From IMG/VR virus record IMGVR_UViG_3300013121_000020, positions 192,001-256,000 of that record: DNA of 64,000 bases. One strand, given 5' to 3'. The notes below the pieces were generated by a model, which ran no database searches, was not told the origin of the DNA, and saw only the letters and a list, made by a program, of their open reading frames with translations. Below, one piece after another: positions 3,362 through 61,570 of the stretch (position 1 is the stretch's first letter; each line of letters opens with the position of its first letter). The DNA comes from a virus (Duplodnaviria; Caudoviricetes). The translations under genes and the position numbers were made by a program.

Positions 3362-6300
3362 TTAATATGTTTCCATTAGAGTAGCAATTGATCCATCAAG
3401 AAATTGTAGTTTAGTATCAATTGATTCAATTTCAACTAAACGGCGTTCAATAATTGTATGATCATGATCCCAATCATATTGTCCATCTTGATCTAAATAT
3501 TTATTAATAGAACATAATGTATTGGTTCCAGTCTCGCATTCAACCAATAAACATCCAGCATCAAGTCTACATGTAAGTTCTCTATGGCTCCTTATCCCTG
3601 AACCTAACATAAATAATAATTCGTTTGGCGAATGTGTACCATTTATAGTTGGAACACCAAGTCCAAGCAATAAATCATCATATATTCCTTGCCCAAGCGA
3701 TGGTGATATGTATGGTTGATATCCTCTTAAACATGGATATCCATCGGCATAATCAATGATATTAGTGTTACATTGATTGTGGCTTTGGAATAATGGATCG
3801 GTTGTTTCGATGGTGTCAGCAGAAACTGCTGTGTCATAATCACATACACCATCAAATGTTACTGCTGGATTGCTATTAGCATCCTTCATATAAACTTTAT
3901 GAACAACATCTTGAGATGTGAATGTTGAATCTGTGCCTAGAGTGTGATCGCCAAATGATGGAATATCTGGTGTTATATTATTGCCAAGAATCTTATACTG
4001 AACAGTATCAAATTCTAGTCTTTCGTTCCCATCTGTGTCGATGACCATATGATAATTCAAATATGTTAGATCTGTTTTACCACAAACATTTTTTGGACCA
4101 CATCTATTATAATCCCATGGACGTGCGGTATATGACTCGTGTGTGAAATCGGTAGTTAATCCTTGTAATAGTGGAAATCTACAACCTGGAAAGTGTAGAT
4201 GAGGTTTGGTTATTTCTAAACTTGGTCTTTGGATTGCCAATTGTTGACGTTGATCTGATATTGGATTACCACGACGATTTGAATAGTGTAGTGTTTGTGA
4301 AATTTGACTACCATAATCACGATATAATCTGCCGAGTAATGAATTGTTTTTTGATTGCAGAGGTTTATTATGTGGTGTTTTTAAATAATCGCTCGTTATG
4401 CTTTTTGTGTAGAATTCTTGGCTACCAACAGGTGATCCACCAGAGAATCGCATTTTGTTGGTTTTGCTGCGTGGGTCTGGGTTTTTAACACCAGGTTGTA
4501 CCATTTTTGTGATGATTGGATATAACCAGTATACTCCGGAACCTAAGCCAACATAAATTGGTTTTATGCCGCTATGTTCTTCTAATTTTAAAGTTGGTCT
4601 GTATAATAATTCATCGCTGACACGACCTTTATAACAATAGTCATTGATTTTATCTAAATCACAAAATGCTTGTTGTATTTGGGTCCTTTCGCGTGTGAAT
4701 GATCCATATGCACCACTATTTGAATTGCTGCTTTCTTTTGGTCCAGTTTGTTCGAATTCGCCTTCGAGTATGATGTTATTAGCTGATAATTGGTTTGTTG
4801 TGTATCCAGAATCGCTCATATTTGAATTTGGTGTTGGATCATGGATAACATCACGAATTTCCACTCGTTCTTGTGGTATGACTCTGTCTTGGCCGAGGTA
4901 TGTGAATTTACAAGTGTTTCTATCTGCGGGTTGGTTTGGTGCGATTCTAGTGTTGCCATTTGGAAATTCGGTGCGATTATCCAACGCTTTCCATATGGCG
5001 TGTTCTTCTGGAAGATTTGTTAATGTTCGTAATCGTAGCAAGATATCTGAATCTTTATACCCAAGTGATCGCGGCTCGAAAAGAGAACAATCGCTTAAAT
5101 CTTCAGGAATGCTAGGTATGATCGCTGGTGGGACTTGTAGTCGTCCAATGTCTGTATCAAATCGTTGTGCGAATGATCCACCCACGCATAGATCAGTAAC
5201 TGCATATGTTTCAGTAAGTTCAATTCTTGTTCTTATTACATTTAGTAATGAATGAAATGCTTTGAGTCTATAAAGAAATTCAACAGCAAACTCTAGCGTA
5301 GTAGGATCGGCGAATTCTTCTAGAGCCTTTGTAAGAACTTGAATATCAAATCTATTGCTTTGAAGATTTGCGATTATACTAGGAACTGTAAATTCATATC
5401 GTTTATACACTGCAAACACATATACTTTGCAACCGTCAAATTCGCTATTACCATTTAGAATTATTGAGAGAGTATTTGTTTCACGATTGATTGATACTCC
5501 TCGGCTTGTTAATGGTACTATCGGACCAACTAACACTTCATCTGTGGTTGTTCCTAGTTTACCAGCAATATGAATTTGACTAAATCCTGCTAATTCTTTT
5601 CCTTCAATTGCATCATCAAATGCTTGTGGGAACATGAATCCATCATTATCAACAATGCAATTTGCTGTGTCACCATAACCAGACGGATCATTAGCGATTT
5701 TATCAACAATGTCCTGTAATGCTAGATGAGCAGGACTATTAATTTTTACTGTGTATGATACAATTGTTATTTGTCCGCCATCGCGAAGAGCAGTAAATTC
5801 ATCTAAACCACTAAGTTCTTGTGGTCTAAATAAGAAAGGAACTTCAAAATTGGTGAAATTTGCTACAGTATAGTCTGCGACAATTGCTTCAACTTGGTCG
5901 TGGGCAGTTGTTTTTATTTCTTGATTGCTATAATTGTTTGGTAAAGTTTCATCTGGGCGAATTAAGCGTTTACCATCGCTGGACCACCATAAATTGCTAA
6001 TAAGGACTTCAAATCCAAACAATCTGAAAATGTTGATAATTGCTCGTCGTGAACCTTTTAAATTTTGAAATTCGACTGTTCTACGCAATACTGCTCGTCG
6101 CAGTTGATCCAATGATTCTGGAAAATATGGGAGATCCCATCCTAACAATGATGATAGATATGGTATGGCTTCTGCTGGGGTGTCGAACACCCAATTAATT
6201 TTACCAAGTAACTCTTGTTCATCCATGATATCTTGTAAGATATCTGTAAATGGACGATATAGAGCTACAGTTGAGTCAGCTGACTTTTTGTTATTTGTGA

Positions 6301-31784: not shown

Positions 31785-32405
31785 ATGTGTGAGCCAAGCC
31801 ACAGCATTGTGCAGTATCCATCACAAGACGATGGTGGTAGCCCAACTGCCCCACTTATGGACGCAATTGAAAAATGCCAGCCAGAGGGCTGGTTCGCCAG
31901 ACTCAAGAAGCGTATTGGTGGGTGGTTTCACTTTTCTAAAATGGGCTATGGCCACTCAGAGGCGTTGTTGTTGACTCCTGAGTCGCGTCGTCGACTACCT
32001 ACTGAAAATAGGTATGAGGCATGGTGGTGGGTTCGCAAAGTGGCGCTTGATGGTCAATTTTTTGGACCAGATTATGAAAAAGTAGATGCGTTGGAATGTG
32101 CGACTGCATATGCTCATAAAGTAAGTGTTGGAAATCTCACTTTATGGCGGCAGTTTATAGAATCATCGATGCGTCTTTCGAAGCGACCGCATTCGTATGA
32201 AACCGCGTTTGTTGATCTTATGTTGACGGCGAAGGGTCGCGATGCATTTAAAGCGAAATCGGTTAGAGTTAATAAAAGTAGATGGAATCTCGAAACTGCT
32301 ATCAAGCTGATCCTTGGATTTTCGAGAAAGCGTGAGTTGTTAGTTCCAGAGTGGGCTGATGACACAAAACTGTGGGTTCCCAGTCCGCAATTAATAGGAG
32401 GTTAA
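31785..32405 (+). CDS. Hypothetical protein
   Basis: 206 aa, GAGGA RBS, motif promoter at 31719. Confidence 0.6.
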   Translation: MCEPSHSIVQYPSQDDGGSPTAPLMDAIEKCQPEGWFARLKKRIGGWFHFSKMGYGHSEALLLTPESRRRLPTENRYEAWWWVRKVALDGQFFGPDYEKVDALECATAYAHKVSVGNLTLWRQFIESSMRLSKRPHSYETAFVDLMLTAKGRDAFKAKSVRVNKSRWNLETAIKLILGFSRKRELLVPEWADDTKLWVPSPQLIGG

Positions 32406-32419
32406 TCGACACAACAACA

Positions 32420-32856
32420 CGAAGTCCCAGGTTAGGGTAAATATTATCCTATCCGAATGCTGTTAGCGATAACTGACAGTGTTGAACTGCAGCAACGCTT
32501 GATGTAATTGTCGCTAATATAGCACTCCTGGCGAATGGGATGTGGGGATTGCCCACAGTGGATTTTCACTAATCTTCGCACCAATTATTAATAAATTAGA
32601 ACGTAAGAAAGTAAGAAAGTAACCAGCAACGAGATTCTGGGAGTTCTGGCTCTCTATGGTTAATGTTGAAGCTCCTATAAACCCTGAGCGAAAGCTTTGA
32701 CGGGATGGAGTGGAGTTAATCCTCTAGCAATGTGCAGAATCTCGTTTCAAATGGGGATCAATAACATATGACGCCATTTACGTAGTTCATGCGGTTGATG
32801 GCCGCACTCGATATATGGTTTTAATTGGGTGTGAGGTACTCCCTCACACCCAATTA
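32420..32856 (+). ncRNA. Large structured non-coding RNA (candidate)
   Basis: ORF-free ~550-bp gap with nested helices, e.g. AACGAGATTCTG/CAGAATCTCGTT (32628/32735), ending in a 15-bp hairpin 32822-32856. Confidence 0.55.
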
Positions 32857-32959
32857 TGTTTCCGGCCATTATTTCGCAACTAAACACACAGATTTACTAG
32901 CTTAAACCCGCTGCCACATGATCGAGAGACGACCCTAACACCTACGACTGGAGATTAAG

Positions 32960-33628
32960 ATGGCTGGACTGTTTGCAAAGGCACAAGCGAAGACTGAAAC
33001 CAAAGCCACCACCAAGAAAAAGAGCACCACATGGTTGGTGGGCGACCATGGCACTGACAAAGTCGCCAATAGCGTCCATGCTCTGATTGAATTATCTGGT
33101 CAAGCGAAAGCTGTGGAAGCCAAAATGAGCGTCCACAAAACCATCGTGAAGGATTTCGCTGAAAAGAGTTACGTTCGCGACTACGCGACCGTTGGTGTCA
33201 GCCCCGAAACTCCCATGGTTGTCCAGAACCAGGACGGAGAAAAAGTAACGTTCGTGGTGCAAGATCGATCATCACAATACAATGTCAAGAACGATCAGCA
33301 GGAAGCGTTAATCGCACTACTCGGTGAAGACGCAGCTGCAGAATTGCTCTACACCGAAACTTCATTTGGATTCAGCCGCGAAATCTTGGCACTCCCAGGT
33401 GTCATGGAAGTAATCGAAAAGGCGTTGGAAAACGCCATTAAGAAACTCATTGATAACAATGTTATCACTCCAGAACAAGCAGAAGAACTGCTCGATGTGA
33501 AGTCGAAAACGGCATTCAAGCCTGGAACGCTTGACCGACTTAGCATCATTTGTGGTAAGGACACCACCCGAATTGAACAGTTTCTGGAAATCATGGGATC
33601 GTCGGCGACCCGCTATGTGAAGGTTTGA
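32960..33628 (+). CDS. Hypothetical protein
   Basis: 222 aa, GGAG RBS, motif promoter at 32893. Confidence 0.7.
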   Translation: MAGLFAKAQAKTETKATTKKKSTTWLVGDHGTDKVANSVHALIELSGQAKAVEAKMSVHKTIVKDFAEKSYVRDYATVGVSPETPMVVQNQDGEKVTFVVQDRSSQYNVKNDQQEALIALLGEDAAAELLYTETSFGFSREILALPGVMEVIEKALENAIKKLIDNNVITPEQAEELLDVKSKTAFKPGTLDRLSIICGKDTTRIEQFLEIMGSSATRYVKV

Positions 33629-36239: not shown

Positions 36240-37081
36240 TTAAGGATTTCCAACGTGGAACACGCGCGTAACGTAAGGGTTAGAAGGATTGGTCCTATAC
36301 GTCACTCTAATCACGAAGTAAAAGACGCTCATGTTCCACATCCTAACTGTATTATCGACACAGTAGCGCTCACAATACCACCACAATGGTACGCAGCGTG
36401 GACTAGAGGTTTACTATGGTCACCAAAAACTAGAGGATGGTTACAATCGTTCAACGAAGCAATATCAGATGTGTGTAGTGGGCGAAGACCTTTGTTGTAT
36501 GGATGGCGCAATGACGAAATACAATGCGCAGCTATTGAGCACAATTTGGTTTATGTTGATCTTGATTGGATAAGTGTTGGTTGTTTACCATTGAATCGTG
36601 ATATGGCGAGTTTGATGGCGTGGGGTCATCAACAAACATCTGAAATTTATCATGTCGTAAATGGCGTTCTACTTGGGTATCCATTATTTGAAATTGAAGA
36701 ATGGATTAAAAGTGGATGCCCTGGGAAAACGATGCAAGAAGTTTTAACAGCAAAGGATTCGTAATATGCCTAAGCCATTTGTTCAAGAATTTCAAGAATT
36801 TGGAATTACAAGCATTGTTATCGACGAGAATGAATTCAATGAATTCATTGATGAATTGTCCGGGATATTTGATGCTAATACACAAGCTGCTAAGAAATTA
36901 AAATGTTTACCGCTTATGACACGCGGTACGAAGACTGAACAATTTTTTGAACGGTGGGGTGTTAAAACAGATAAATTAAGTGTTATCGTGCGTGGACACG
37001 GTCAAACACTATTAAATCAAATGGCCGGTAGGTCAATAAATTGATTCTAGCACATTAACGGCTATTCATCAGCCGCCACAT

Positions 37082-43519: not shown

Positions 43520-44063
43520 AAAAAGAGAAAACATGAGAAAACACAAAATTGGACAACGTGTCAGAGTCGTTATGGGTGTGAACGCTGGTATGCTCGCCAC
43601 CATCGTTTCAATGGCACGCATCTCCATCAAAGGGTGTGGTACACCGAACATTGGAAGAGGTCACTACAAACCAATAACTAAAAACGATAGAGCAATTCAA
43701 TATGTTGATGGCACATTCGATGTGCATGATGTTGGGAATCTAAAAATTATTCCAAATGGGAAATACACATGAGGTAATTAATGAGTAAGCAAATCAAGCC
43801 GGGGCGGACAATCTACTGGTGGATGGATAGTGGGGCTAATATCCATTCATGCAATCGCGGAGAAATCACATTAGATGAACTTGGTATCACTGACGATGAA
43901 TGGAATGCGATGAGTGAAAAAGAACGTGAAGAGGTTATGAGGGATGTTGCGTTCATGCAAGTCGATTGGGGCTTCAGTGAAACCAAACCAGATACCCATT
44001 GATGGAATTAGTCTAATATGACCGCCATCAACGACCAATAACTCACCGGAGGGGCTAGACCAG

Positions 44064-44399
44064 ATGAAACCATTCTATGGTATTGTGGAACTTGAAAATG
44101 GTCTCACCATCAATTGGATGAGATTCGCAGGTTCAGAAGAAGACGCCATTAAATTGGTTCGAGCACAACATGTACATGTTGTACGTTGTGAAACCACGCA
44201 CTTGCATTTCTAATGGTATAGAGACAAAGGCCGAGGCCAAGAGGTAGCTGACGCCACCAACGCAATCCAGGACATGGTTGGTACTTGGCCCATCGCTCGA
44301 TTGCCGGTTACGAGAGAAAACGAACTCAAAGTGTGGGAACATTTAATTAAGACATATGGTGTCAATGCCACGCTTGAAAATAGAGAGTACATTAATTAA
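44064..44399 (+). pseudogene. Probable nonsense-interrupted gene
   Basis: GGAGG RBS, ATG 44064, single in-frame TAA at 44211, frame stays open to TAA 44397-44399. Confidence 0.4.
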
Positions 44400-45615
44400 T
44401 GCACCAGTTTTTCGATGAAGGTTGATAGTGGTATTTTAAAGTGGTTCCATTAATTCAGTTTCATGGTTGGGCTGGCAAGCCACACAAAGAATGGCCAGAG
44501 GATTTGCCAGCACTTTTTGGCTCATGCTTCTGAGATTCGAAAATTAAAGTAAGCACATCTCAGAAAACCAACTCAACACAAACGACCAAGAGTTAACGAT
44601 AGTTAACTCTCTGCCACAACTGGTATGAACCGACAACCACAGAGAGAACCATGACCGCCATCCAATTAAAACAGTTCATCAACCGAATCCTTGGAATTCC
44701 AAAGTCCAAACTTCGCGCCACAAGCGGAGACCGATACTGTCACGTAACTATCATCCCAGAACGCCGACACCGACAAGATTTTAAAGAACCCATCCGTTAC
44801 GCATACCAATTCACACCGGAACTTGGGAATCGCTGCATGCGGATAGTCTATAAAGGACATGAATCGCTTTGTGCACAGAATTGGGGCGGAAACATCACCA
44901 GTCACAGCATCGCCATGCTTTCCCATGAATGGAAGGAATTGATCGAACAATATGAACATCAAAACACTGAAAACAAAATGGCGTAAACAAATTGTCAAGA
45001 AAGCCGAAAAACTTGACAAAGAATCAAACCATGGAGGCCACGACTGGCACTCCATCTGGGTCGGGTTCGTAATCGCTTTAGAGCGACCGGACCTAACCAG
45101 TCACGAAAAGTATATGGAATACGGATTCCCAGAAGAACAGAACAAACAATGAACAAATACAGGATTTCGCCATGAAAGTATGCGACATCATTAGCGTTGT
45201 GCAACGGTTCCCAGAGAATTGGGACCTGTTCAATTTAATGTGGTGGTGTGGATTAAACCACGAATACCGAACCTAACTAGTCACGAACGCCATTCTCTAT
45301 GAACACTACACCGCACCAAAACCTCAGGAAATAAAATAATGTTTTATTACTTAACTGTTAAATATGACATCCAACATCTTCAACTAAGCGGAACATCAAG
45401 ACTTCATGGGCCATTCGCAACTGAAGATCAAAGAATTTCACACTTCTTAGAGAATATTACAGAACGCGACCTCGAAACAGATGAAATCTTGAACACCACA
45501 TTTCTAACCATAAAAGAAGATAGGAGTTTAGTGCGAGAAAAGTCGTGGATCGTAAATGGAGACGACCCGCTTGATATGGGCGACTAACAACCTTATAATT
45601 ATTCAAGGAGAAATC

Positions 45616-46044
45616 ATGACAACCAAAATCAACTATGATCAAATGATAGAAGCCTGCCGACACCTATCAGAACGCAACAAAAACGGCAGCTGGCCAAAAA
45701 TCCCAGAAATCTTCGAAAAAATCCGAGAACAACACAACATCGACAAAACCGACATAAACTGGCCACTAATCGTCGAATGGATCGTCTATCAATCCGCCAT
45801 CGACTACCTCTCCCAAACCACCCTCAATTGGACAATCGTCCACGACAAAACCATCAGCTGGTGGAAAGCAGATACGCCAAACGGACCATACCTAATCTTC
45901 CGAAAACTGGAAGATCAATGGCGACACTCATGGACCGCCCCAAACCTAGACAGCGGCACCACCCTCACACTCGAAGAAGCAAAAGAAGCCGCACAACAAC
46001 ACTTTAACAACCAAACCAAAATGAACGACTCAACACCACATTAA
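45616..46044 (+). CDS. Hypothetical protein
   Basis: AAGGAG RBS; C-terminal TLEEAKEAAQQHF. Confidence 0.6.
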   Translation: MTTKINYDQMIEACRHLSERNKNGSWPKIPEIFEKIREQHNIDKTDINWPLIVEWIVYQSAIDYLSQTTLNWTIVHDKTISWWKADTPNGPYLIFRKLEDQWRHSWTAPNLDSGTTLTLEEAKEAAQQHFNNQTKMNDSTPH

Positions 46045-46101
46045 CAGCCAGACCAACCCCAGCCACACACAAGCAGAACAAGCCACCAACCGGAGAATAA
46101 A

Positions 46102-46377
46102 ATGCGGTTACAACAAACAACCCCCATCTTCGTAACCGGACAAGACGGCACCTCCAAAATGACACTCGGAGGCCTCTTCGACGCCATCGTCGGCGGCACG
46201 AAATGGGAAGATATCGAAATCACCACAGACAAAAAAGAAAGCGAGGAAAACGAAAAGAAACGCCTCGTCATCAAAAACGTCATCAAACTCGTCCAACAAA
46301 TGTCCACACACCAAGCAGAAACTATCCTCCGAGCCATCGACACACTAATCCAAAACCCACGAGAAAACAATGACTGA
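46102..46377 (+). CDS. Hypothetical protein
   Basis: GGAG RBS; motif promoter at 46041. Confidence 0.55.
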   Translation: MRLQQTTPIFVTGQDGTSKMTLGGLFDAIVGGTKWEDIEITTDKKESEENEKKRLVIKNVIKLVQQMSTHQAETILRAIDTLIQNPRENND

Positions 46378-46429
46378 AGTAAAAACCACACTCTGCACCG
46401 CGACACCACCCAAATAATATGGACCAACC

Positions 46430-47260
46430 ATGAATGACACACAACCATTCATCGACACAATCATCAACGACCCAAACGCAGACGGCCCAAAACTCGTCCT
46501 CGCAGACTGGCTAGAAGAACAAGGAGACCCACGAGCCAAATGGATACGATGGTGGCTAGGCCCACTCACAACCGCAGCAAAAACAGCCATCACAAACGCA
46601 AAACCAAAAACCAACTTCAGCTTCACCACCAAAGACCTACCACACGACCAACTACTCGGCTCACTAATCATCGACCTATCATGGCGACACATCATCATGC
46701 CAAACAACAAAACACTAGCAGAAACAGCCGACCATCACATCAACATCACAAACACAGCCGCCATCCTACGATGGCTCAACCTCATCAACCAACAACAAAT
46801 AACCACAATAACAGAACACACAACCAAAATATTAGAAAAAACAATCACAGCAAAAGACAACGCAACCATGAAATGGCACCAAGCAGCCTCAGAATGGCAC
46901 CACACACACAACCACACAACCAAACTCAACAATGCAATCGCCGCAAAAGACCACGCAACCGCAACATGGCACCAAACAACCACAATCTGGCACCAAGCAA
47001 TCGCCGCAAGAGACCAAATAGACGCACCCTGGCACCAAGTCGCCGCAACCATGAACCACATAGAAGCCGCAATGAAACAAGCAGACGCAGAATGGCACCA
47101 ACTCGCCGCAACCACAAACCAAATAAAAGCACCAGCCGCAACACTAAACCAAACAACAATAACAGGAACCAAAATACACGGCCAAATCACAGCAATATAC
47201 AAAACCGCAAAAAACCTCGCCAAAAAGACAAAACTCACCGACCCACGCAAAACCCACTAA
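46430..47260 (+). CDS. TIGR02996 domain protein with WHQ helical repeats
   Basis: FIDTIINDPNADGPKLVLADWLEEQGDPRAKWIR; repeated xxWHQ. Confidence 0.75.
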   Translation: MNDTQPFIDTIINDPNADGPKLVLADWLEEQGDPRAKWIRWWLGPLTTAAKTAITNAKPKTNFSFTTKDLPHDQLLGSLIIDLSWRHIIMPNNKTLAETADHHINITNTAAILRWLNLINQQQITTITEHTTKILEKTITAKDNATMKWHQAASEWHHTHNHTTKLNNAIAAKDHATATWHQTTTIWHQAIAARDQIDAPWHQVAATMNHIEAAMKQADAEWHQLAATTNQIKAPAATLNQTTITGTKIHGQITAIYKTAKNLAKKTKLTDPRKTH

Positions 47261-47871
47261 CCCAAACCCAACGGAAAACCAACCATAATCTTATTCTTAA
47301 AATCACCCCCAAGCCTCCGCCTATACCAACCCAACCCCGGCAACCTACCAGACGGATCACCACCCAACCACTCAATATCCTTCCCCAAAACCCGCCTCAC
47401 AACCTCAGGATCAGTCACAACATTAACACCACGACGCAACAAAACCGCCGCCAAAGCATCACTAACCTCACCATAATAACCAGAAGAACCAAAATCACCA
47501 ACCTTCCTCGACACCAACGCATCCTTCGCCACCCTCGACCCATCAGTAGCACTCGCCACACCCTTCTCCCCAAACCGCGTCAACTTACTAACAATCGTAG
47601 CATCAGCAACCCGATCATCATCAACATCAATCGCATACACCACAAACCCCCGATCCCTACACGCATCCAACAAATCACCAGAAGACCTAAAATCAACATG
47701 CCCCCCAATCCCCCCATAACTAACATCAATCAACCTAAACAACTCATCAGCCAAAGAAGGATCCGCATCAACATCACCAGGACCAACAACAACCCAACGA
47801 TCCCTCACACCAAAATGCCCAGCAAAATCCTCACCAAGCACCCGATCAAGAACAACATCAAACAACCTCAT
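47257..47871 (-). CDS. Hypothetical phage protein
   Basis: GAGG RBS before MRLFD; motifs SYxxIGGH, YxEVS, GWYxRxLGG..KIMVGxP. Confidence 0.65.
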   Translation of the reverse strand: MRLFDVVLDRVLGEDFAGHFGVRDRWVVVGPGDVDADPSLADELFRLIDVSYGGIGGHVDFRSSGDLLDACRDRGFVVYAIDVDDDRVADATIVSKLTRFGEKGVASATDGSRVAKDALVSRKVGDFGSSGYYGEVSDALAAVLLRRGVNVVTDPEVVRRVLGKDIEWLGGDPSGRLPGLGWYRRRLGGDFKNKIMVGFPLGLG

Positions 47872-47969
47872 AACACACCCCCTCTCCCCATACATTTGCC
47901 ACCACACATTTACCACACCCCCCACCCCCGCCACACACCACCACACAACCAAAAAGAAGGAGAAGAAAA

Positions 47970-48137
47970 ATGAACAACCAACAAACAAACATCGACATCG
48001 ACCAACAACTCCAACAAGAACTCCAAACCCTCCAACACCAACTCCAAACCCACCAACTCACACCATACCAACAAGAAATAACACAACAACTCATCAACGA
48101 CATAATACACACAATCAACACACAACGTATTAAATAA
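47970..48137 (+). CDS. Small Gln-rich protein (55 aa, not in the ORF track)
   Basis: AAGGAG RBS and motif promoter at 47909. Confidence 0.5.
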   Translation: MNNQQTNIDIDQQLQQELQTLQHQLQTHQLTPYQQEITQQLINDIIHTINTQRIK

Positions 48138-48419
48138 AAAACAAACACCCAAAACCAAAAAGGAACAACAAAATGGAAGACAACCCAAAATTCACCATCA
48201 ACCGCATGGACAACATCATCACAATCACCATAAACAAACCAATGGCAGAAGACATCCTAGAAATCATGGACGACTTCACAGACCTACGACCCCACGAATA
48301 CGCACTAAGAGAACAACTAAGAAACATAACCGAAGGAAAACCAGCAAAACCCACAGCAAAATTCAGCAAAACCCACTAGTACACAAATGTACCCACCACA
48401 AAACCACAAAATCCCGCAT

Positions 48420-48650
48420 ATTCCCTTGTACATTGATATATATTATACAATTGTGCCTCGTAATACGCGGTAATACCACAACGAGCGTGGGACAATTTAC
48501 ACCCATCCCACGCTCGCCACATCCCATCACTCGATCATCAACTCACCACACAAGAGGGGCGATGAGAATTGTAGATGCTGATTTTTACCCCCTGATAAGG
48601 GCTTTCTTATTCACGAAGCTACACTTCAGGAATGGGAATGTACATTGAAG
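48420..48650. other. Strand-composition switch point (candidate replication origin or genome end junction)
   Basis: + strand is A/C-dominated to the left and G/T-dominated to the right; contains an AT-rich patch and an 11-bp IR (48482-48516). Confidence 0.55.
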
Positions 48651-49121
48651 AAGGCGGTTGCACAACGTATCGATGAGTTGAAGCAGAACGATAGTATGGG
48701 AGATTCTGTTATGGTGTCTGATCCTCCTGTTTTGTTTATTGATGTTGGTGGGCGGGTTGGATATGTGGCAGTGAGTGATCTTAAGGATGCGATTGCTCTT
48801 GATGATTGGTTGATTGGTGGGTTTTTGGTGGCGAAGATGTCTTATTGCCCAGCGGAACCTGAGTTGCCGCGAGAGCCGGGTGTAGATAATGTTGTTGTGT
48901 TTCCGCAGTTAAATAGTGAAATTGGGAAGTTTTGTGCTGAGATTAGAAAGAGGTTGAAATTGTGAGTCGTCCTACTGTTTATCAGGTGGTGAAGCTTCCG
49001 AGGGTGTCTCGTAAGCCTCGGAAGCATACTGGTGTTGCGTATCGTAGGGTTGGTAGGAAGTTGGTGGTGTTTCATTTGATGGCACCTAGGATGATGTTGC
49101 GATGTTCTGAGGGGTGAAGGT

Positions 49122-49889
49122 ATGTTGATTGATTATGTTGATGGTCCTGTTGCTGGTGGTCGTCGTCCGCGTTTGTATTTTGTGCGGAATGGGGAGGTTC
49201 GTAAGTTTGCTGGTGAGTCTATTGATGGTTGGTGTGTGGTGTTGAGGAAGTGGCGTGATGATACAATGTCATCGTGTGGTACGTCGCATCTGTTTATTAT
49301 TGAACTTGCGCCGGATGTGAAGCCGTTGGAGTTGTTGTCTCCGTTGTATGGTATTTGGGGGCAGGATTTTAAGTCATGGGATGATGTGGTTTCTCATTTG
49401 CGGCTTCCGGTTGATGTTGTTCGTGGGATTGTTGGTGATGAGTATCCTGAGACTGCGGCGCGTCTTGATGAGATTGCGGCGTTTGCGAGTGTGAATGATG
49501 AGTTTGAGTTGGTGAATATTGTGTTTGGGTCTTCTGGGGATGCTAGTTTTTGGGTTGAGCCTAAGTCTGCGGTGTCGTCTTCTGGGCGGGTTGTGGTTGC
49601 TGAGTTGATTGATTGTGAGGTTGGGTGGAGGCATGGGAATGTGCGAGTTCCTGATGATTGTAAGGTTGTTGATGTGAGGTATAGTCGTGAGTGGACGGTT
49701 ATTGTTCAGGTGGCGGTTCCTGTTGGTGGTGGTGCGGATGTTGGTGAGCTTGTTCGTTGGTTGCGGTTGTTGAAGGATAGGATTGCGATTTCTGTTGTTG
49801 ATGGTGGGAAGATTTTGAGAGTGGTGAATGTTATTGAGTGTGTTAAGGATAATGCGATTATTATTACGGCAGCGCCAAATGGGTCTTGA
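49122..49889 (+). CDS. Hypothetical protein
   Basis: 255 aa, GAGG RBS; Val/Gly-rich due to the skew. Confidence 0.6.
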   Translation: MLIDYVDGPVAGGRRPRLYFVRNGEVRKFAGESIDGWCVVLRKWRDDTMSSCGTSHLFIIELAPDVKPLELLSPLYGIWGQDFKSWDDVVSHLRLPVDVVRGIVGDEYPETAARLDEIAAFASVNDEFELVNIVFGSSGDASFWVEPKSAVSSSGRVVVAELIDCEVGWRHGNVRVPDDCKVVDVRYSREWTVIVQVAVPVGGGADVGELVRWLRLLKDRIAISVVDGGKILRVVNVIECVKDNAIIITAAPNGS

Positions 49890-50370
49890 TTTCCAGGGCG
49901 GAAATCGGGTGTGTATGGGGGTGTATGATGGCTGTTACTGTTGTGGGGCAGGCTGGTGGTGGTAAGAAGGTTGTGTGTAAGAAGTGTGGGGCTGTGCTTA
50001 AGTATTGGCCTGTGGATGTGAAGTGTGTGAGAGGTTGTGATGGTGTTGGGTCTCATAAGGTGATTAAGTGTCCTAAGTGTGGTGGTAGTGTTTATGTGCG
50101 TGATTTTGGGTCGTGTTTGGATTGATGGGGTGTTGTATGAGTCCTAGTGCGAAGCGTGGGTTTGATGCGATTCAGGGTTATTTTAGTCGTGATGTGTCTG
50201 ATTTTCGCAGTCCTGGTGATTATCCTCCGAATGTGGTTGAGGCGTTGTTGAAGGATTTGGTGTGTTATTGTGATGAGTATGGTGTTGATTTTGATGGTGC
50301 TGTGAGTCGTGTGCGTGTGGGTGTTGGTCGGTGTGTTGGTGATGATGAGGTTACTGGTTTTTGATTTTTT

Positions 50371-50442
50371 GGGGCTGAAGCTCAATGGTAGAGCAGGGTG
50401 CTCATAACTCCTTGGAAGTGGGTTCGATTCCCACCGGCCCCA
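50371..50442 (+). tRNA. tRNA with CAT anticodon (Met or Ile2)
   Basis: GGGGCTG/CGGCCCC acceptor, GCTC-AATGGTA-GAGC D arm, CTCATAA loop, GTGGG-TTCGATT-CCCAC T arm; CCA not encoded. Confidence 0.9.
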
Positions 50443-52434
50443 TTCATTTCTTTTTAAATGCTGAATAGTGGATTTACGTAGTGTTTGTAGCTGGCACAAT
50501 TCTATATGGAACTTACACGCCAACAGAAATATGAGCGGAAGTCGGTTAGTGCTTTGAGGTTTTATGCTGGTCTACGTGGGCTTGGGGTTAGGCCGGTGGA
50601 TGTTGAGGGTTATCTGGGGAAGAGAGTTGGTGTTTATCAACTTACAAAGGTTGAGTTGGTCCAGCTTCATTTGAAGTTGGATGAGGCTGGTTGTGGCCTT
50701 GGAGATAATCTTTCGTAGATGAGGGGTGAGACTATGTCGCATGTTGAGCGGTGTGTTCGTTGTGGGGATGTGGCTGATGATGATGGTGGTGTTATTGATT
50801 TAGTTGATGGTATGTGTGAGTGTTGCCGTGATCATTTGGAATGGGTGGCGGTAGTGGTGTCTGATGATGTGCGTTATGGTGATTTTGATTATTCGTTGAA
50901 TTATTAATTGGAATTTGCGATGGTTTAGGTCCTGTCACAGGTGGGTTGTTCCAAGGCGGAAATCGCGTATAGGTATGATAATGTTCAAGATTGCTATTGC
51001 TTATCATTTCGTGCTCGTGGCGGTTGATCGAAGTGCGGTTGTACAAAGTCTTCGCTGTGAAGATTGATGGCGTGGAAGGGTGGGTTGGGTGTTCGCGTGG
51101 TTTGATTTATGATTACGCTTTGTATTTGCGTAAGGAAGTAGAGATTAACCATGCGTGTGTTTCAGGTGCGTGATGGTGGTGCAGATCGTGTGTCGAATGT
51201 TCGTTATTTTTGGATTGAGGAGTTTCTTGTTGGTGATGGGTGGGATGATAATCGTTTGTTGAGTAATGTGTTGCTTTTGTCTGATGATTATGTTTTTGCT
51301 AGTTTCAATGGTAAGCATTATCGTGTGTGTGAATGTTGTTTGGATGAGGATGATGAAGAGTGTTTTGTGAAGGTTTGGGAGTCTGATCCGTTTGTTGATT
51401 GTCTTCCTGAGAATATGCGGCCATTTCCTGTGTGTTGAGGGTCTGCCACAGTGGGTTGGGTGGAGATAATTGTGGAGGTAGAGTGATGAATATTAGCGTG
51501 CGTGGGAAGTCGTTGGTTGTGCCTCCTCATGAGTGTGAGCCGGTGATTGAGGTTGATGCTTCTGAGGTTGGGGAGCGTTATTCTCTTGGGGTTGGCCATA
51601 TTGATGTTATTGGTAAGGGTGGGTTGGTGTCGCGGTTTTGGATTGATGTGCGTGTGAATCCTTCTACGCATCGGCCTGAGCTTATTGTTAGGACGAAGGT
51701 TGGGTCTGAGTTGCAGGTTCAACGGGAGAAGCGGGTTCAGGGGTCGTTTAATATTACTAAATCTGCAACGTGAGATAAGATATGGTGAGAGTATTTGTAT
51801 CGCGACAGCAGGCTAAGGCGGACCTTCGCTGGCGATTTCGTCATGTCAAGAGGGGGGTTATCGCAGATGTGCATGTAAAAGGTGAGTGGCGGCGATATGG
51901 GTTTATTGATGGTATGGGGTTTTATTATGAATTAGCGCCGCCTGATGGCCAGTTTTGTGCTGTGGGTCCAGTTTAGGAGATTCATGATGACCGCGATGAT
52001 GAGAATTGTTAATGCTGTTCGTTGCAATCTTCCGAACAGTGTTAATCTTCGGGTGAATGATAGCGATGTGCAAACTGTGAATTGGTCGTATCGCGGTCAT
52101 GGTTCTTCTGATAGTCTTCGTATTGTTGATGGGCGTTTTTATGATTTTATGAGAACTGATCGTGGTCCTGCTACAGTTGATAATCTTTTTAAGATTGTCA
52201 AGGAGTGGGTTGCTGCGGTGGATGAGAGTTTTAATGATCCGCCGCCTTCTCGACGGTCTTGTAAGGTTGTTTATGTGCCCGGTGAAATTGCGGACTTGGC
52301 CGATGAGGAGTTGGGGAAGGTTTTGTCGGTGTTGCGTGCTCGCTTTCCTTTGTTGGCTGATGAAATTGATATGGATCGTGCTTGGGGTGTGGATGAAGGG
52401 TGATGTTTACGGGGGTTTGCGGCTTGCCACACGG

Positions 52435-52557
52435 AGAAGGCGTGAGACGGGGGCGTCGGTAGGGGCGATAAAGGGCAGTACCTGGGCCTTACGGAATGCT
52501 AGCGTTTGCGTTTGGCCAGCTAACCTGTGACCCGGTGTCCCTGTTTTCACGCTTTCT
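52435..52557 (+). ncRNA. Structured non-coding RNA (candidate)
   Basis: Starts just after motif promoter 52406; 5' AGAAGGCGTGAGACGGGGGCG pairs over ~21 bp with 3' TGTCCCTGTTTTCACGCTTTCT. Confidence 0.5.
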
Positions 52558-52575
52558 TGTGTGGTGGGGGTGGCG

Positions 52576-52746
52576 ATGATGTTTATGGTGTCGTGGAGCG
52601 TTGGCGGCGTGTGTGGTAATCAGAGTTTTGGGACTCGTGATGAGCGTGAGGGGTTTATTGCTGCCAATTCTTTGGGGTGGTCGTCTTTTTCGCGGTGGTG
52701 GTTTGTTGATGGGGCTGGTGTTTCTGTTCTTCATTCTGATGAGTGA
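52576..52746 (+). CDS. Small hypothetical protein (paralog of 61571..61753)
   Basis: MFMVSWSxxGxCGNQSFxTRxExxxFIA..SRWxF shared. Confidence 0.65.
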   Translation: MMFMVSWSVGGVCGNQSFGTRDEREGFIAANSLGWSSFSRWWFVDGAGVSVLHSDE

Positions 52747-52977
52747 GTTATGCCAGAAGAGACTGATGGCGATGATGTGGTTTACCGTAATGTAAAACAA
52801 TGTTCACGGTGTCAGGGTCGGGTGGATCGGTTTTGCCATAAGTTGCCCGATCATGCGACGAAGTATTTTCTTTGTCGTGATTGTGGGGCTGTTGGTGATC
52901 CGTTTTGTGGGTTGATGCAGGATTGTCGGTATAGAGATTCGTAAATTGGTGTATCGATGGCGATCCCGAAAGGGAGT

Positions 52978-53105
52978 GGGTGTTGGAGCAGGCACGGCGA
53001 CCTGCCAGACGGAGAAGGCCATCCGAGCTTTTTAGCTCGACCGATACGGGGCGACTGTTGCTCTAGGTAATGCGGTGGACCCGGTTCGACTCCGGGCAAC
53101 ACTCA
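52978..53105 (+). ncRNA. Oversized tRNA-like RNA
   Basis: GGGTGTTG/CAACACTC 8-bp acceptor, GCAGG/CCTGC D-like arm, CCCGG-TTCGACT-CCGGG T arm, ~70-nt non-canonical middle. Confidence 0.55.
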
Positions 53106-53110
53106 TGTGG

Positions 53111-53220
53111 GTGTCGTGTCGTGTCGTGTCGTGTCGTGTCGTGTCGTGTCGTGTCGTGTCGTGTCGTGTCGTGTCGTGTCGTGTCGTGTCGTGTCGTGTC
53201 GTGTCGTGTCGTGTCGTGTC
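53111..53220. repeat. Perfect microsatellite (GTGTC)22
   Basis: 22 exact 5-bp units counted. Confidence 0.95.
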
Positions 53221-53251
53221 TCCAGGTCGGAAATACACATACGAGAAATAA

Positions 53252-53854
53252 ATGATGAACAATTTTGTGTTTATGAAAATTGGCGAAGCGTTCGGTACAG
53301 TGCGGAACGACGCGCTTAGCACAGCACTTAATCTCGACTCACGTCTCATTGGCGGTTTCTTGTTCGCATGTATGCAACCATCAGTACAAAAACCAAATAA
53401 AGCTTTGGGTTTAATTCTTGAGTGGCCAGTGGACCTTGACGAACAAAAAGTCGCGCGTTTCCGCGATGACGCAATTAAACATTTATGCCCACCCAAACCA
53501 GTGTCGTTGATCGATCAAATTAATGCGTTGGTTGATGATATTGTAAAACGTAAAAAAGTGCGAACGGTTGGTGCGCACGACGTAAACAAGAAACAATTTG
53601 TGTTTAAAGATGTTCCGTTAACAGCGGAATGGCTGTTGGCTCAATTGTTGGCCAATTGGCGTGTGGTGTCGTTATCATCGTTGCGCAACTTATTTTATAA
53701 TGGATTTAAAGGTTATAAGGATTATACTCGTGCTGAATTGTTGGCGGATATTGGGGAAATTCTTGATAAAAATGGTGTGATGCTGGAATGTCGGCGGTTG
53801 TCTGACTTTTCTGATTTGTTTCATAAATATATTCATGAAACACGCGATTCTTAA
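53252..53854 (+). CDS. Hypothetical protein
   Basis: 200-aa ORF. Confidence 0.6.
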   Translation: MMNNFVFMKIGEAFGTVRNDALSTALNLDSRLIGGFLFACMQPSVQKPNKALGLILEWPVDLDEQKVARFRDDAIKHLCPPKPVSLIDQINALVDDIVKRKKVRTVGAHDVNKKQFVFKDVPLTAEWLLAQLLANWRVVSLSSLRNLFYNGFKGYKDYTRAELLADIGEILDKNGVMLECRRLSDFSDLFHKYIHETRDS

Positions 53855-54001
53855 TCTTAAATCTTTAATAAACGTTGGCGGACATTCCTTAGGATGGGGA
53901 GTGTCCGTCAACGTTTATTTGGCGGATTTTGCGGCGGGTTAACGGGGGTTCGAATCCTGCCACAGGGGATTGGGTCGGAGGTACAATCCACAAAATGGGA
54001 G

Positions 54002-59782: not shown

Positions 59783-61570
59783 CCCTCTTTACTACACTTC
59801 TTCTTATGCCACAATCGTATGTGGTGACACCTACCACGCTGAGTGGGCGACAGCGAAGTGGTGCGGCAGTCGGGAGAGACCGGCATTCTCAGGAGCAAAA
59901 TCGATGGTACTTGCAGCAAAGCGTGTGGTATTCAACGCGGAATTACGTGAAGTCTTTGGTGAAATTGTGCGTGTCGCCACCCGCGAAGATAAGATACAAT
60001 GCAACATCGATCCAGAAATTGACCATGTTGTGGTTGATTTCAGCCATGATGGTGTTCAATATCGTGGATTGTGGCGGCAGGATGAGTGTATGTTGATTTC
60101 ATAAATGAGGGGTGCAATATGTCTGATGAAAAGAATAAAGAAAAGGCAATCAAGAAAGTGTTGGCACATCAATCATTTCCGCAGAGACCATCAAAGATTG
60201 TGGCGATAAAGGTGTTTGGAAATGCGTTTCGGGTTAACGTGTATGCTGAAGAGCATTCAGAATCGGCAATTCGTTCGCACAAAATGATTTTTTCTGATCT
60301 GGTGCGTGTTGACGCAAGTTAACGGCTGGTTCTTACTAGCCACAATTGTGTACTCAAAAGTCATCCCCCAGGGAGAGGGTCGGCTGGTAGCGGCCCTCTC
60401 CCGCCCCTTTATAAGAAGGTATTATGGTTGCGTTCAATAATCGTCTTCAAGCGATTGTGCATGCTAAGCAACTGAATGACCTTATTGCTGTTGCTGATGC
60501 CTCTGACAGGCATGATTGTGCTGGAGATATTTGGGCTGGACCATATGAGTGTGGTGTGTTAGCCGGGTTGAAGTTGGCTGAGATGGTGCGTTCTCTTGGG
60601 TCTGGTGTGGCTATCTATCAATTTACGCATTTGTTTGGGGCTGTCACATTGTGGTTTGTTGGGACTGAATGTGATGTGGAGATGCGGATCTCAAGGTGTG
60701 CTAATGTGGTGGTTTAACTTGAATATTGTCGTGGCGATTCCTCTGCGACCTTGAGTTTGTGGAACGGTCACGCTCTCGCACCTGTAATATTGGAGTATCA
60801 ATAGTGGATAACGCCAAGGCCAAGGTTGTTTACTTCGTACCAGATAGTGTTGCTTGCGAGGTTCATGAGCGGGAGATTGATTTGTGCCGAATCGATGGAC
60901 TGCCGCTTGGTCAGCAGGTTGCTATTGTTGATGCTTTTGATTTGTTTAATATCGATGGCGAAGACATGTTTAAGGAAACTTCCTATCGTTCGGAGTTCTA
61001 CGACGAGCATGATGGGACCGGGTGTTTGAAAGTCGAAATTGACGCTCGTGGTCACTGGTATGGGATTGTCGTTAATCTCCAGAATCCTGAAATAGCCCGC
61101 AAAAAAGCCGAAGAGATGTTGGGTGAATGGTGTGGGAACGACGAAGAGGAATAAGTAGACTTTCGGGGTGGTGTTTACGGCGAGTTGAGGTCTGCCACAT
61201 CTTGTGGTGACGGGATAATCATGAGGGTCACAAGAATGAGCTTCATCACCGAAAAACGTGACGACAATCGCCAATGGGTCAAGCTTTCAACTCATAACAG
61301 TCGGGCCGATGCCCTGGCTGTGCTGCCGTTTGGGACTCTTCGCCGGACTGGGGACACATCGGAGTTGGTGACGGAAGATGGCGTCGAATACCGGGTTCGC
61401 CGGGTCACGAAAAAGAAGCGTATCAACGTCCGTGAGTTGATGGCGGGCGTGGGGTTGAAGCGGGTTCGGGGTACAGCTGGTGGGATCTACTACGAATGAA
61501 ATGATCAAGAAGCTTTTTTGATTAGTGGTGGATACCTTCCGAGCGTTAAACATTCAAATAAGCTGGTGGT

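What the first reader, a model, noticed from the sequence alone, without database searches (positions are those of the whole stretch)
32420..32856. ~440-nt multi-domain structured RNA candidate
Seen: the longest ORF-free gap in this gene-dense part. Domain 1 is closed by CGAAG/CTTCG with CCAGG/CCTGG, TAGGGTA/TATCCTA, GTTAGCGATAA/TTGTCGCTAAT, AGTGTTG/CAACGCT and GTGGG/CCCAC. An A-rich linker has tandem GTAAGAAA. Domain 2 is closed by a perfect 12-bp helix spanning ~120 nt and contains a GC-GAAA-GC tetraloop. It ends with AAATGG/CCATTT, GCGG/CCGC and a 15-bp terminal hairpin. Many G-U pairs favour RNA-level selection. I cannot match it to tmRNA, RNase P or an intron.
Basis: partly seen in the sequence, partly recalled or inferred. 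Interest (0 to 1): 0.7.

Follow-up and report, generated by a model that had tools for sequence, protein, structure and literature searches.

The report
New phage RNA tied to orphan gene
The gap holds a real, evolutionarily conserved folded RNA (a four-helix junction locked by a pseudoknot) that in dozens of uncultivated giant phages always sits directly behind one orphan 200-residue protein gene; neither the RNA nor the protein matches any described family.

Summary
The 555-base gap (32406-32959) is non-coding. Relatives give the decisive evidence. The gene just upstream (31785-32405, 206 aa, no Pfam, PHROG, NCBIfam, PADLOC or PDB match) has many homologs in giant-phage contigs, and nearly all are followed on the same strand by an ORF-free stretch holding one shared RNA motif. 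The motif is a closing helix P1, three consecutive hairpins P2-P3-P4, a conserved AAUC junction, and a pseudoknot between the P2 loop and that junction. A covariance model built only from relatives finds one significant match in the window (32523-32588, 24.7 bits, E 6e-4) and one in the whole 354-kb genome. It gives 37 hits in 216 kb of loci, all on the + strand just 3' of the gene, in one to three tandem copies. Covariation is very strong (score 0.754 against 0.196 shuffled, 0 of 500). Rfam 15 has no match. "Domain 1" is therefore a member of a new RNA family. "Domain 2" has the same order of parts but the model does not detect it. A terminator-like hairpin closes the unit. Function is unknown; I favour an RNA partner or target of the co-encoded protein.

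The parts
31785..32405 (+). 206-aa orphan gene (N-terminus MCEPxHS). It is the constant genetic partner of the RNA.
   Evidence: ORF. 52 homologs. 205 clusters at 50% identity, all about 190-260 aa and stand-alone. No Pfam, PHROG, PADLOC, NCBIfam or PDB match. AF2 model pLDDT 90 with no convincing fold match.
32420..32592 (+). Domain 1: a full copy of the family RNA, with two 5' accessory hairpins (32433-51 and 32462-518) followed by the conserved core.
   Evidence: Folds. The subgroup alignment A3 has the same layout: closing helix, two 5' hairpins, P2, P3, P4, junction.
32523..32588 (+). Conserved core, as matched by the covariance model.
   Evidence: Model R2, built without any window sequence, gives 24.7 bits and E 6e-4 over the whole window with filters off; the next hit is 14.2 bits, E 0.14. 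It is the only hit in the 354-kb genome. R1 gives E 0.02.
32526..32540 (+). P2 hairpin: 4-bp stem (32526-29 with 32537-40) and a 7-nt loop.
   Evidence: Aligned to the family's P2, which is 100% paired in 37 sequences, with 3 of its 4 pairs showing changes on both sides.
32541..32557 (+). P3 hairpin.
   Evidence: This 17-mer is identical to the one at the same position in relative L019. Family P3 is 98.9% paired and all 5 pairs covary.
32558..32569 (+). P4 mini-hairpin. In relatives this arm varies in length.
   Evidence: The outer 5 pairs of family P4 all covary.
32571..32579 (+). Junction J4/1: the conserved AAUC(U), then the 3' strand of the pseudoknot (UUCGC, 32575-79), which pairs with GCGAA (32531-35) in the P2 loop.
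   Evidence: The AAUC block is near-invariant in the alignment shown. The family pseudoknot shows CG to UA and AU to GC compensations in several loci, and it was not part of the model. The window's version is 5 Watson-Crick pairs in the family's register (duplex -6.7 kcal/mol); that this is the same pseudoknot is inference.
32593..32627 (+). A-rich linker with GTAAGAAA twice (32603-18).
   Evidence: An A/U-rich tail also follows the motif in relatives. Function unknown.
32628..32746 (+). Domain 2: possibly a degenerate second copy. It has a 12-bp closing helix, an inserted hairpin, an extended P2 with a GAAA loop (32682-704), P3 (32707-25), a mini P4 (32727-35), then AAUCU and the 3' closing strand.
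   Evidence: Same order of parts as domain 1 and a shared GGGAUG after P2. A pattern covering both hits only these two sites in the genome, but I derived it post hoc. R2 does not detect it. Tandem copies are common in relatives.
32749..32805 (+). Two small hairpins (32749-79 and 32791-805).
   Evidence: Present in the sequence and in the MFE. No homolog found.
32823..32855 (+). 14-bp G+C-rich hairpin, read as an intrinsic-terminator-like end of the transcript.
   Evidence: Relatives end the RNA with a comparable covarying hairpin (helix 11). The U-tract is weak, and the simple scan did not call it.
32893..32918 (+). Phage promoter-like motif TTTAC-N15-GCCACA for the next gene (32960-33628). 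It marks the 3' boundary of the unit.
   Evidence: The same two-box motif recurs before many + strand genes in the window.

Best explanation
Shown: bases 32420-32592 encode, on the + strand, a member of a previously undescribed family of structured RNAs. The fold is a closing helix around three consecutive hairpins (P2, P3, P4), forming a four-helix junction. Its conserved 3' junction strand (AAUC...) pairs with the P2 loop to form a pseudoknot. The family occurs in one to three tandem copies immediately after, and sometimes overlapping, the stop codon of one orphan gene of about 200-250 aa in giant phages. In the records searched it was found nowhere else. Inferred: the RNA is made as the 3' tail of that gene's transcript, ending in this window at the hairpin 32823-55. 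It acts together with the protein encoded just upstream as its specific binding partner or target. This could be a small phage ribonucleoprotein or a feedback site, with the tandem copies raising the RNA-to-protein ratio. Domain 2 (32628-32746) is probably a decayed second copy.
For: Linkage. 25 of 39 distinct homolog loci carry the two-block signature within 500 nt after the gene. There were none on the reverse strand, none in 262 kb of control sequence, and a mean of 0.17 in shuffles. With model R2 there were 37 hits in 216 kb, all on the + strand and all directly 3' of the gene. In five whole phage records of 74-388 kb the only hits lie next to the gene. There were none in loci that lack the gene. 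The RNA is still present next to a homolog of only 23% identity.

Structure. In the 37-sequence alignment P2 is 100% paired, P3 98.9%, P4 94.9% and the pseudoknot 89%. 18 of 20 pairs change on both sides, and the covariation score is 0.754 against 0.196 in shuffles (0 of 500) and about 0.1 when the partners are slid. The close subgroup gives 24 pairs with double changes.

Strand. In the subgroup helices there are 76 G-U cells against 13 A-C cells.

Window membership. E 6e-4 with a model that holds no window sequence.

Co-transcription. In several relatives the motif starts 3-20 nt after the stop codon or inside the end of the coding sequence, which leaves no room for a separate promoter.

Mobility as a pair. 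The neighbours differ from phage to phage, and only the gene and the RNA stay together.
Against: The protein has no recognisable RNA-binding fold or motif. Known RNA partners of proteins are rarely placed 3' of the gene in tandem. Three of the most distant protein homologs gave no hit; one of those contigs ends inside a P2-like hairpin. Domain 2 is not detected by the model. The alignment used for counting P2-P4 was fitted to the model, which inflates those numbers. The pseudoknot was not in the model.
Confidence: 0.5

Rival explanations
1. RNA processing element or small self-cleaving ribozyme. It would define the 3' end of the mRNA or cut it from downstream RNAs such as tRNA arrays, and tandem copies would give unit-length products.
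For: The fold is compact, a pseudoknotted junction with near-invariant junction and loop nucleotides. It occurs in tandem copies. In about 5 of 36 loci same-strand tRNA genes follow within a few hundred bases.
Against: No match to any Rfam ribozyme class, even at E up to 10. Most loci have no tRNA nearby. This idea does not explain the strict tie to one protein family.
Confidence: 0.15
2. Ligand-sensing (riboswitch-like) aptamer, sometimes in tandem, that controls read-through of the following terminator into downstream genes.
For: The four-helix junction with a loop-to-junction pseudoknot is a typical aptamer architecture (SAM-I is my comparison, from general knowledge). A terminator hairpin follows in the window and in the subgroup. 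Tandem aptamers are known.
Against: The constant neighbour is the upstream gene, and the downstream genes vary. In three subgroup loci the sequence after the hairpin, read by eye, looks like the end of a gene on the opposite strand (not tested, and not so in others). There is a 25-60 nt A/U-rich spacer and no evident anti-terminator. In the window the next gene has its own promoter motif.
Confidence: 0.12
3. Generic 3'-end stabiliser: a very stable structure that blocks exonucleases and protects the upstream mRNA or a downstream fragment, with no specific protein partner.
For: It sits in the 3' untranslated tail. It occurs in tandem, as exonuclease-resistant structures in some viral 3' UTRs do (general knowledge). 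The fold is stable.
Against: Simple terminator hairpins would do this job. Near-invariant unpaired nucleotides and a conserved pseudoknot across proteins as low as 23% identical point to a specific recognition surface. The element is found only with this gene in whole genomes.
Confidence: 0.12
4. One stand-alone ~440-nt multi-domain ncRNA with its own promoter.
For: The whole stretch 32420-32856 is ORF-free, rich in helices, and ends in one strong hairpin.
Against: No promoter-like site was found between the stop codon and domain 1. Relatives show that the conserved unit is 70-230 nt and may overlap the coding sequence. Only 32523-32588 is detectably conserved.
Confidence: 0.08
5. No function in this window: chance helices or a decaying remnant.
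For: The reverse strand folds equally well. The window copy is the weakest of the 37 hits, and its P2 loop lacks the family's GRYCAG.
Against: E 6e-4 at exactly the expected place and strand. P2, P3, P4 and AAUC are all kept, and the pseudoknot is kept through compensating changes.
Confidence: 0.03

Closest known systems
SAM-I-type riboswitch aptamers (four-helix junction plus pseudoknot)
   Same: A closing helix around a multi-helix junction. A hairpin loop (P2) pairs with a junction strand. Unpaired nucleotides are strongly conserved. Size is about 75-230 nt.
   Different: No Rfam match at any threshold used. The pseudoknot partner is J4/1, not J3/4. It lies 3' of its linked gene rather than 5' of a regulated gene. 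No ligand is known.
TnpB/IscB omega-RNAs and other guide or scaffold RNAs encoded beside their protein
   Same: A structured RNA that starts at or inside the 3' end of the protein's coding sequence and always travels with it.
   Different: The protein is about 200 aa, with no RuvC or other nuclease family match and no fold match to Cas12 or TnpB. There are no transposon ends and no guide-like variable 3' segment. Copies come in tandem.
Type III toxin-antitoxin RNAs (ToxI/ToxN and relatives)
   Same: Tandem pseudoknot-forming RNA units next to a gene for a protein of about 170-200 aa. These systems are phage-related.
   Different: The RNA lies after the gene, not before it. The units are 70-230 nt and are not near-identical short repeats. 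No PADLOC or Pfam hit for the protein. The predicted fold shows no ToxN-like match.
tRNA / tRNA-like cloverleaf
   Same: A closing stem plus three hairpins. P2 has a 4-bp stem with a 9-10-nt loop, followed after one base by a 5-bp P3, as in the D and anticodon arms. Some loci lie beside tRNA arrays.
   Different: Not detected by ARAGORN or the Rfam tRNA model. The junction strands are long. The P2 loop pairs with the junction, not with a T-loop. There is no CCA-type end.
Ro60 with Y RNA (YrlA) modules of bacteria and phages
   Same: A phage-borne protein gene with an adjacent dedicated structured RNA. One relative carries a TROVE gene with a YrlA-like RNA 3 kb away.
   Different: The RNA fold and the protein are unrelated to these. 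There is no YrlA match at this site.

Membership tests
   The window aligns over all 95 model positions, 24.7 bits, E 6e-4; the parts are at 32526-32569.
   AAUCU at 32571-75, aligned with the near-invariant family block.
   The window lacks GRYCAG, but GCGAA (32531-35) can pair with UUCGC (32575-79) in the same register. My rough estimate of chance is a few per cent. It competes with the CGAAG/CUUCG helix.
   The core starts 118 nt after the stop codon of 31785-32405. All 37 family hits have this placement.
Any Rfam 15 family (riboswitches, ribozymes, RNase P, tmRNA, introns, GOLLD/ROOL/HEARO and others) | Covariance-model score at or near the family threshold | tested here: not met
   No hit at gathering score in the window. 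At E up to 10 on 32300-33000 there is only hairpin noise. There is nothing at the motif in 13 relatives.
tRNA / tmRNA | Cloverleaf with the conserved D and T loop elements; for tmRNA also a tag reading frame | tested here: not met
   ARAGORN finds three tRNAs elsewhere in the window and none here. There is no Rfam tRNA hit here.
Type III toxin-antitoxin | Array of short, near-identical RNA repeats upstream of a ToxN/AbiE-type endoribonuclease gene | tested here: not met
   The RNA is downstream. Within the gap, self-BLAST finds only the terminator palindrome, and the two domains share no detectable similarity. The protein has no PADLOC or Pfam match.
Intrinsic terminator (32823-55) | G+C-rich stem-loop followed by a run of U | tested here: inconclusive
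   The 14-bp stem is present. The tail has few U and the scan did not call it. Relatives have an equivalent covarying hairpin with similar tails.

The most novel reading that the evidence does not exclude
The orphan protein and its own 3'-tail RNA form a previously unknown kind of phage ribonucleoprotein module. A pseudoknotted four-helix-junction RNA, made in one to three copies per transcript, is bound (and perhaps cut into units) by the co-encoded protein. The pair moves as a cassette among giant-phage genomes, possibly serving RNA-based takeover or counter-defence, near tRNA and Ro60/Y-RNA loci.
Probability: 0.35. Interest if true: 0.85.

Novelty: categorically new. Interest (0 to 1): 0.78.

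Why it matters
Well-supported new classes of structured RNA are rare, and most are found upstream of genes they regulate. This one has covariation support in four helices, including a pseudoknot. It has a strict one-to-one link with a protein family of unknown fold (about 205 clusters at 50% identity). It is confined to uncultivated giant phages; only one hit turned up among 185,579 species genomes. That makes it a ready target for structure and binding studies. It may reveal a new RNA-protein system in phage biology, and it gives a first functional handle on an orphan protein family.

Tried and rejected
- **Phage-record search.** BLAST of the gap against 50,697 phage records found no match.
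- **Relatives found through the downstream 222-aa gene (L003-L007).** The conserved neighbours are kept, but the upstream genes differ, there is no similarity to the gap, and there is no model hit. The RNA therefore goes with the upstream gene, not the downstream one.
- **Sequence-only searches.** BLAST and nhmmer between the window gap and relatives' gaps found nothing. Only motif inspection and covariance models linked them.
- **Hidden or decayed coding sequence.** Rejected: stops of all three kinds in all six frames, and no tblastn match from relatives' genes.
- **MAFFT seed alignments.** Alignments of the divergent cores mis-placed the 3' block. I therefore seeded the model from the close subgroup and iterated.
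- **Protein function.** Searched with no usable hit:
  - Pfam, PHROGs, PADLOC and NCBIfam
  - a PDB sequence profile
  - Foldseek against PDB, VIA-align wide, ESM Atlas by shape and by features
  - longer fused forms

  The N-terminal half modelled alone was too poor to search (pLDDT 69).
- **Domain 2.** No R2 hit. There is only a marginal nhmmer match (E 0.04) to a stretch after the motif in L055, which shares a GAAA-capped hairpin.
- **Most distant protein representatives (L070-L072).** No R2 hit.
- **Literature.** The one full-text search that ran found no description of this motif; a second query was rejected for its wording.

Full report
**Context**

The window is bases 192001-256000 of a 354-kb viral record, estimated 98% complete: a giant phage. 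The finding lies in a 555-base gap between two + strand genes. One is at 31785-32405 (206 aa) and the other at 32960-33628 (222 aa).

**Checking the observation**

The gap has no + strand ORF of 30 aa or more. All six frames are broken by all three stop codons, so neither recoding nor a decayed gene is a good reading.

The + strand folds to -164.5 kcal/mol, against -140.6 +/- 7.0 for dinucleotide shuffles (z -3.4). The reverse strand does as well (z -3.9), so energy alone proves little and cannot give the strand.

Rfam 15 gives nothing at gathering scores. At E up to 10 it reports only noise on the terminal hairpin. ARAGORN finds no tRNA or tmRNA here.

**Boundaries**

The window carries a two-box promoter-like motif, TTWAC-N15-GCCACA, before many + strand genes. 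One copy sits at 32893-32918, just ahead of the 222-aa gene. The 14-bp hairpin at 32823-55 therefore closes the preceding unit, and the next gene has its own start signal.

**Which neighbour does the gap belong to?**

- **The 222-aa gene.** This protein is highly conserved; 159 relatives were found. In loci fetched through it, the ligase-like gene and the 98-aa gene upstream are kept. The genes between them and the 222-aa gene differ, and nothing resembles the gap.
- **The 206-aa gene.** This protein also has relatives (52; 205 clusters at 50% identity). In almost every locus fetched through it, the gene is followed by 200-770 nt without an ORF.

**The shared RNA**

Nine close relatives conserve about 330 nt after the stop codon at 73-88% identity. 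RNAalifold gives a multi-helix fold plus a terminal hairpin, and 24 pairs change on both sides. The covariation score is 0.285, against 0.158 in shuffles (0 of 500) and 0.05-0.08 for slid partners. In these helices 76 cells are G-U and 13 are A-C, which assigns the RNA to the + strand.

More distant loci share two blocks. The first is a hairpin with a C-rich stem and a GRYCAG...AA loop. The second, 40-140 nt later, is AAUCUG(G). This pair occurs in 25 of 39 distinct loci within 500 nt after the gene. It never occurs on the opposite strand or in 262 kb of control sequence, and shuffles give a mean of 0.17. I derived the pattern from these sequences, so these counts show specificity rather than a formal probability.

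Folding the segments shows a common plan:
- a closing helix P1, different in every phage;
- a variable 5' part, sometimes with extra hairpins;
- P2, P3 and P4 in direct succession;
- the AAUC junction and the 3' strand of P1.

**Covariance models**

R1 was built from the close subgroup only. It already found distant members on the + strand at the expected places, and it ranked 32523-32588 first in the window at E 0.02.

R2 was built from 15 diverse + strand hits, none from the window. Its results:

| Search | Result |
|---|---|
| Whole window, both strands, filters off | 32523-32588: 24.7 bits, E 6e-4; next hit 14.2 bits |
| Own 354-kb genome | Only this site |
| 37 sources, 216 kb | 37 hits, all + strand, all directly 3' of the gene; three copies in L050, two each in L008, L013, L014 and L036 |
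| Loci that lack the gene | No hits |
| Five whole phage records (74-388 kb) | Hits only beside the gene |
| Contig whose protein is 23% identical | 40.9 bits |
| Three of the most distant protein representatives | No hit; one contig ends inside a P2-like hairpin |

**Structure support**

On the 37-sequence alignment, P2 is 100% paired, P3 98.9% and the outer part of P4 94.9%. Nearly every pair shows compensatory change. These columns were fitted to the model, which flatters them.

The pseudoknot between P2-loop positions and the bases after AAU was not in the model. It is 89% paired and shows independent double changes:
- CCAG/CUGG in most members;
- UCAG/CUGA in L048;
- UCGG/CCGA in the three L050 copies;
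- CUAG/CUAG in L032;
- CUGG/CCAG in L036 and L039.

These are listed. The overall covariation score is 0.754, against 0.196 shuffled (0 of 500).

**Reading the window with this knowledge**

*Domain 1.* It is a full member:
- two 5' hairpins, at 32433-51 and 32462-518;
- P2 at 32526-40;
- P3 at 32541-57, a 17-mer identical to the one in L019;
- a mini P4 at 32558-69;
- AAUCU at 32571-75.

Its P2 loop lacks GRYCAG. However, GCGAA (32531-35) can pair with UUCGC (32575-79) in the family's register.

With P2 enforced and the pseudoknot strands left free, an alternative closing helix appears. It joins the last codons of the gene (32390-402) to 32580-92. The alternative folds are close in energy, and I cannot decide between them without probing data.

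*Domain 2.* The stretch 32628-32746 has the same order of parts and the same GGGAUG after P2. A pattern covering both domains occurs only at these two sites in the genome, but I derived it after seeing them. R2 does not score domain 2. I therefore call it a probable degenerate second copy, in line with the tandem copies in relatives.

*The rest.* The two small hairpins and the A-rich linker have no detectable homologs.

**The protein**

It is a compact, stand-alone family. Nearly all members start at MCEPxHS, and the conserved residues include Cys2, His6, His49 and His57. The AlphaFold model is confident (pLDDT 90): an alpha/beta N-terminal half and a helical C-terminal half. None of the family, structure or atlas searches gave a meaningful match.

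Only one hit turned up among 185,579 species genomes, on a MAG contig. The family is therefore essentially phage-borne. A metal site formed by the conserved Cys and His residues is my speculation.

**How it most likely works**

Shown so far: a selected RNA fold on the + strand, tied to one gene.

The rest is inferred. The motif can start within a few bases of the stop codon, or inside the coding sequence, so it is most simply the 3' tail of that gene's mRNA. Only the gene and the RNA stay together while the neighbours change, so I favour a direct protein-RNA partnership, either binding or feedback (0.5).

The rivals are a processing element or ribozyme (0.15), a riboswitch-like read-through control (0.12), a generic 3' stabiliser (0.12), a stand-alone 440-nt RNA (0.08), and chance (0.03). 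Same-strand tRNA genes follow the motif in about 5 of 36 loci. That is suggestive, but it is not general.

**Novelty**

There is no Rfam match for the window or for 13 relatives. No protein family or fold match was found, and the literature search that ran found no description of the motif. I rate it a new RNA family linked to a new protein family, with the function still open.

Noticed in passing
window 28657-63815 (+ strand), e.g. 32893-32918, 37055-37080, 61170-61199: A two-box motif, TTWAC(G)-N15-GCCACA, recurs before many + strand genes, especially from 37 kb onward. It looks like a phage-specific promoter class.
   Followed up: partly
L009:2671-2733: A stretch just upstream of the 206-aa gene homolog matches the bacterial LSU rRNA model at positions 1085-1152 (E 1e-5). 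By my reading of the coordinates this may be a mimic of the GTPase-associated (L11-binding) region.
   Followed up: no
L009:6310-6421: A YrlA-like (Y RNA-like) match (42.7 bits, below the gathering score) lies beside a gene with a weak TROVE (Ro60) hit, 3 kb from the gene-plus-RNA module.
   Followed up: no
L014:1129-1203: ARAGORN calls a tRNA with a CUA anticodon (amber suppressor type) in a related phage contig. This may hint at stop-codon reassignment or suppression.
   Followed up: no
window 32686-32697; L055 ~395-410; L009 ~3755-3770: A GAGC-GAAA-GCUY hairpin recurs a short way after the motif in three phages (nhmmer of domain 2 against L055, E 0.04). It may be a second small conserved element, or chance.
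   Followed up: partly
window 32960-33628: The 222-aa protein downstream is strikingly conserved (49-81% identity over 120 listed relatives, 27 invariant residues) yet has no family annotation.
   Followed up: partly
window 44000-54000: An extreme flip of strand composition: GC skew -0.50 and AT skew +0.56 at 46-48 kb, then GC skew +0.49 at 50-52 kb.
   Followed up: no
L055:447-1239: An array of eight tRNA genes starts 130 nt after the RNA motif in this relative. L008, L011, L012 and L028 also have same-strand tRNAs shortly after it.
   Followed up: partly
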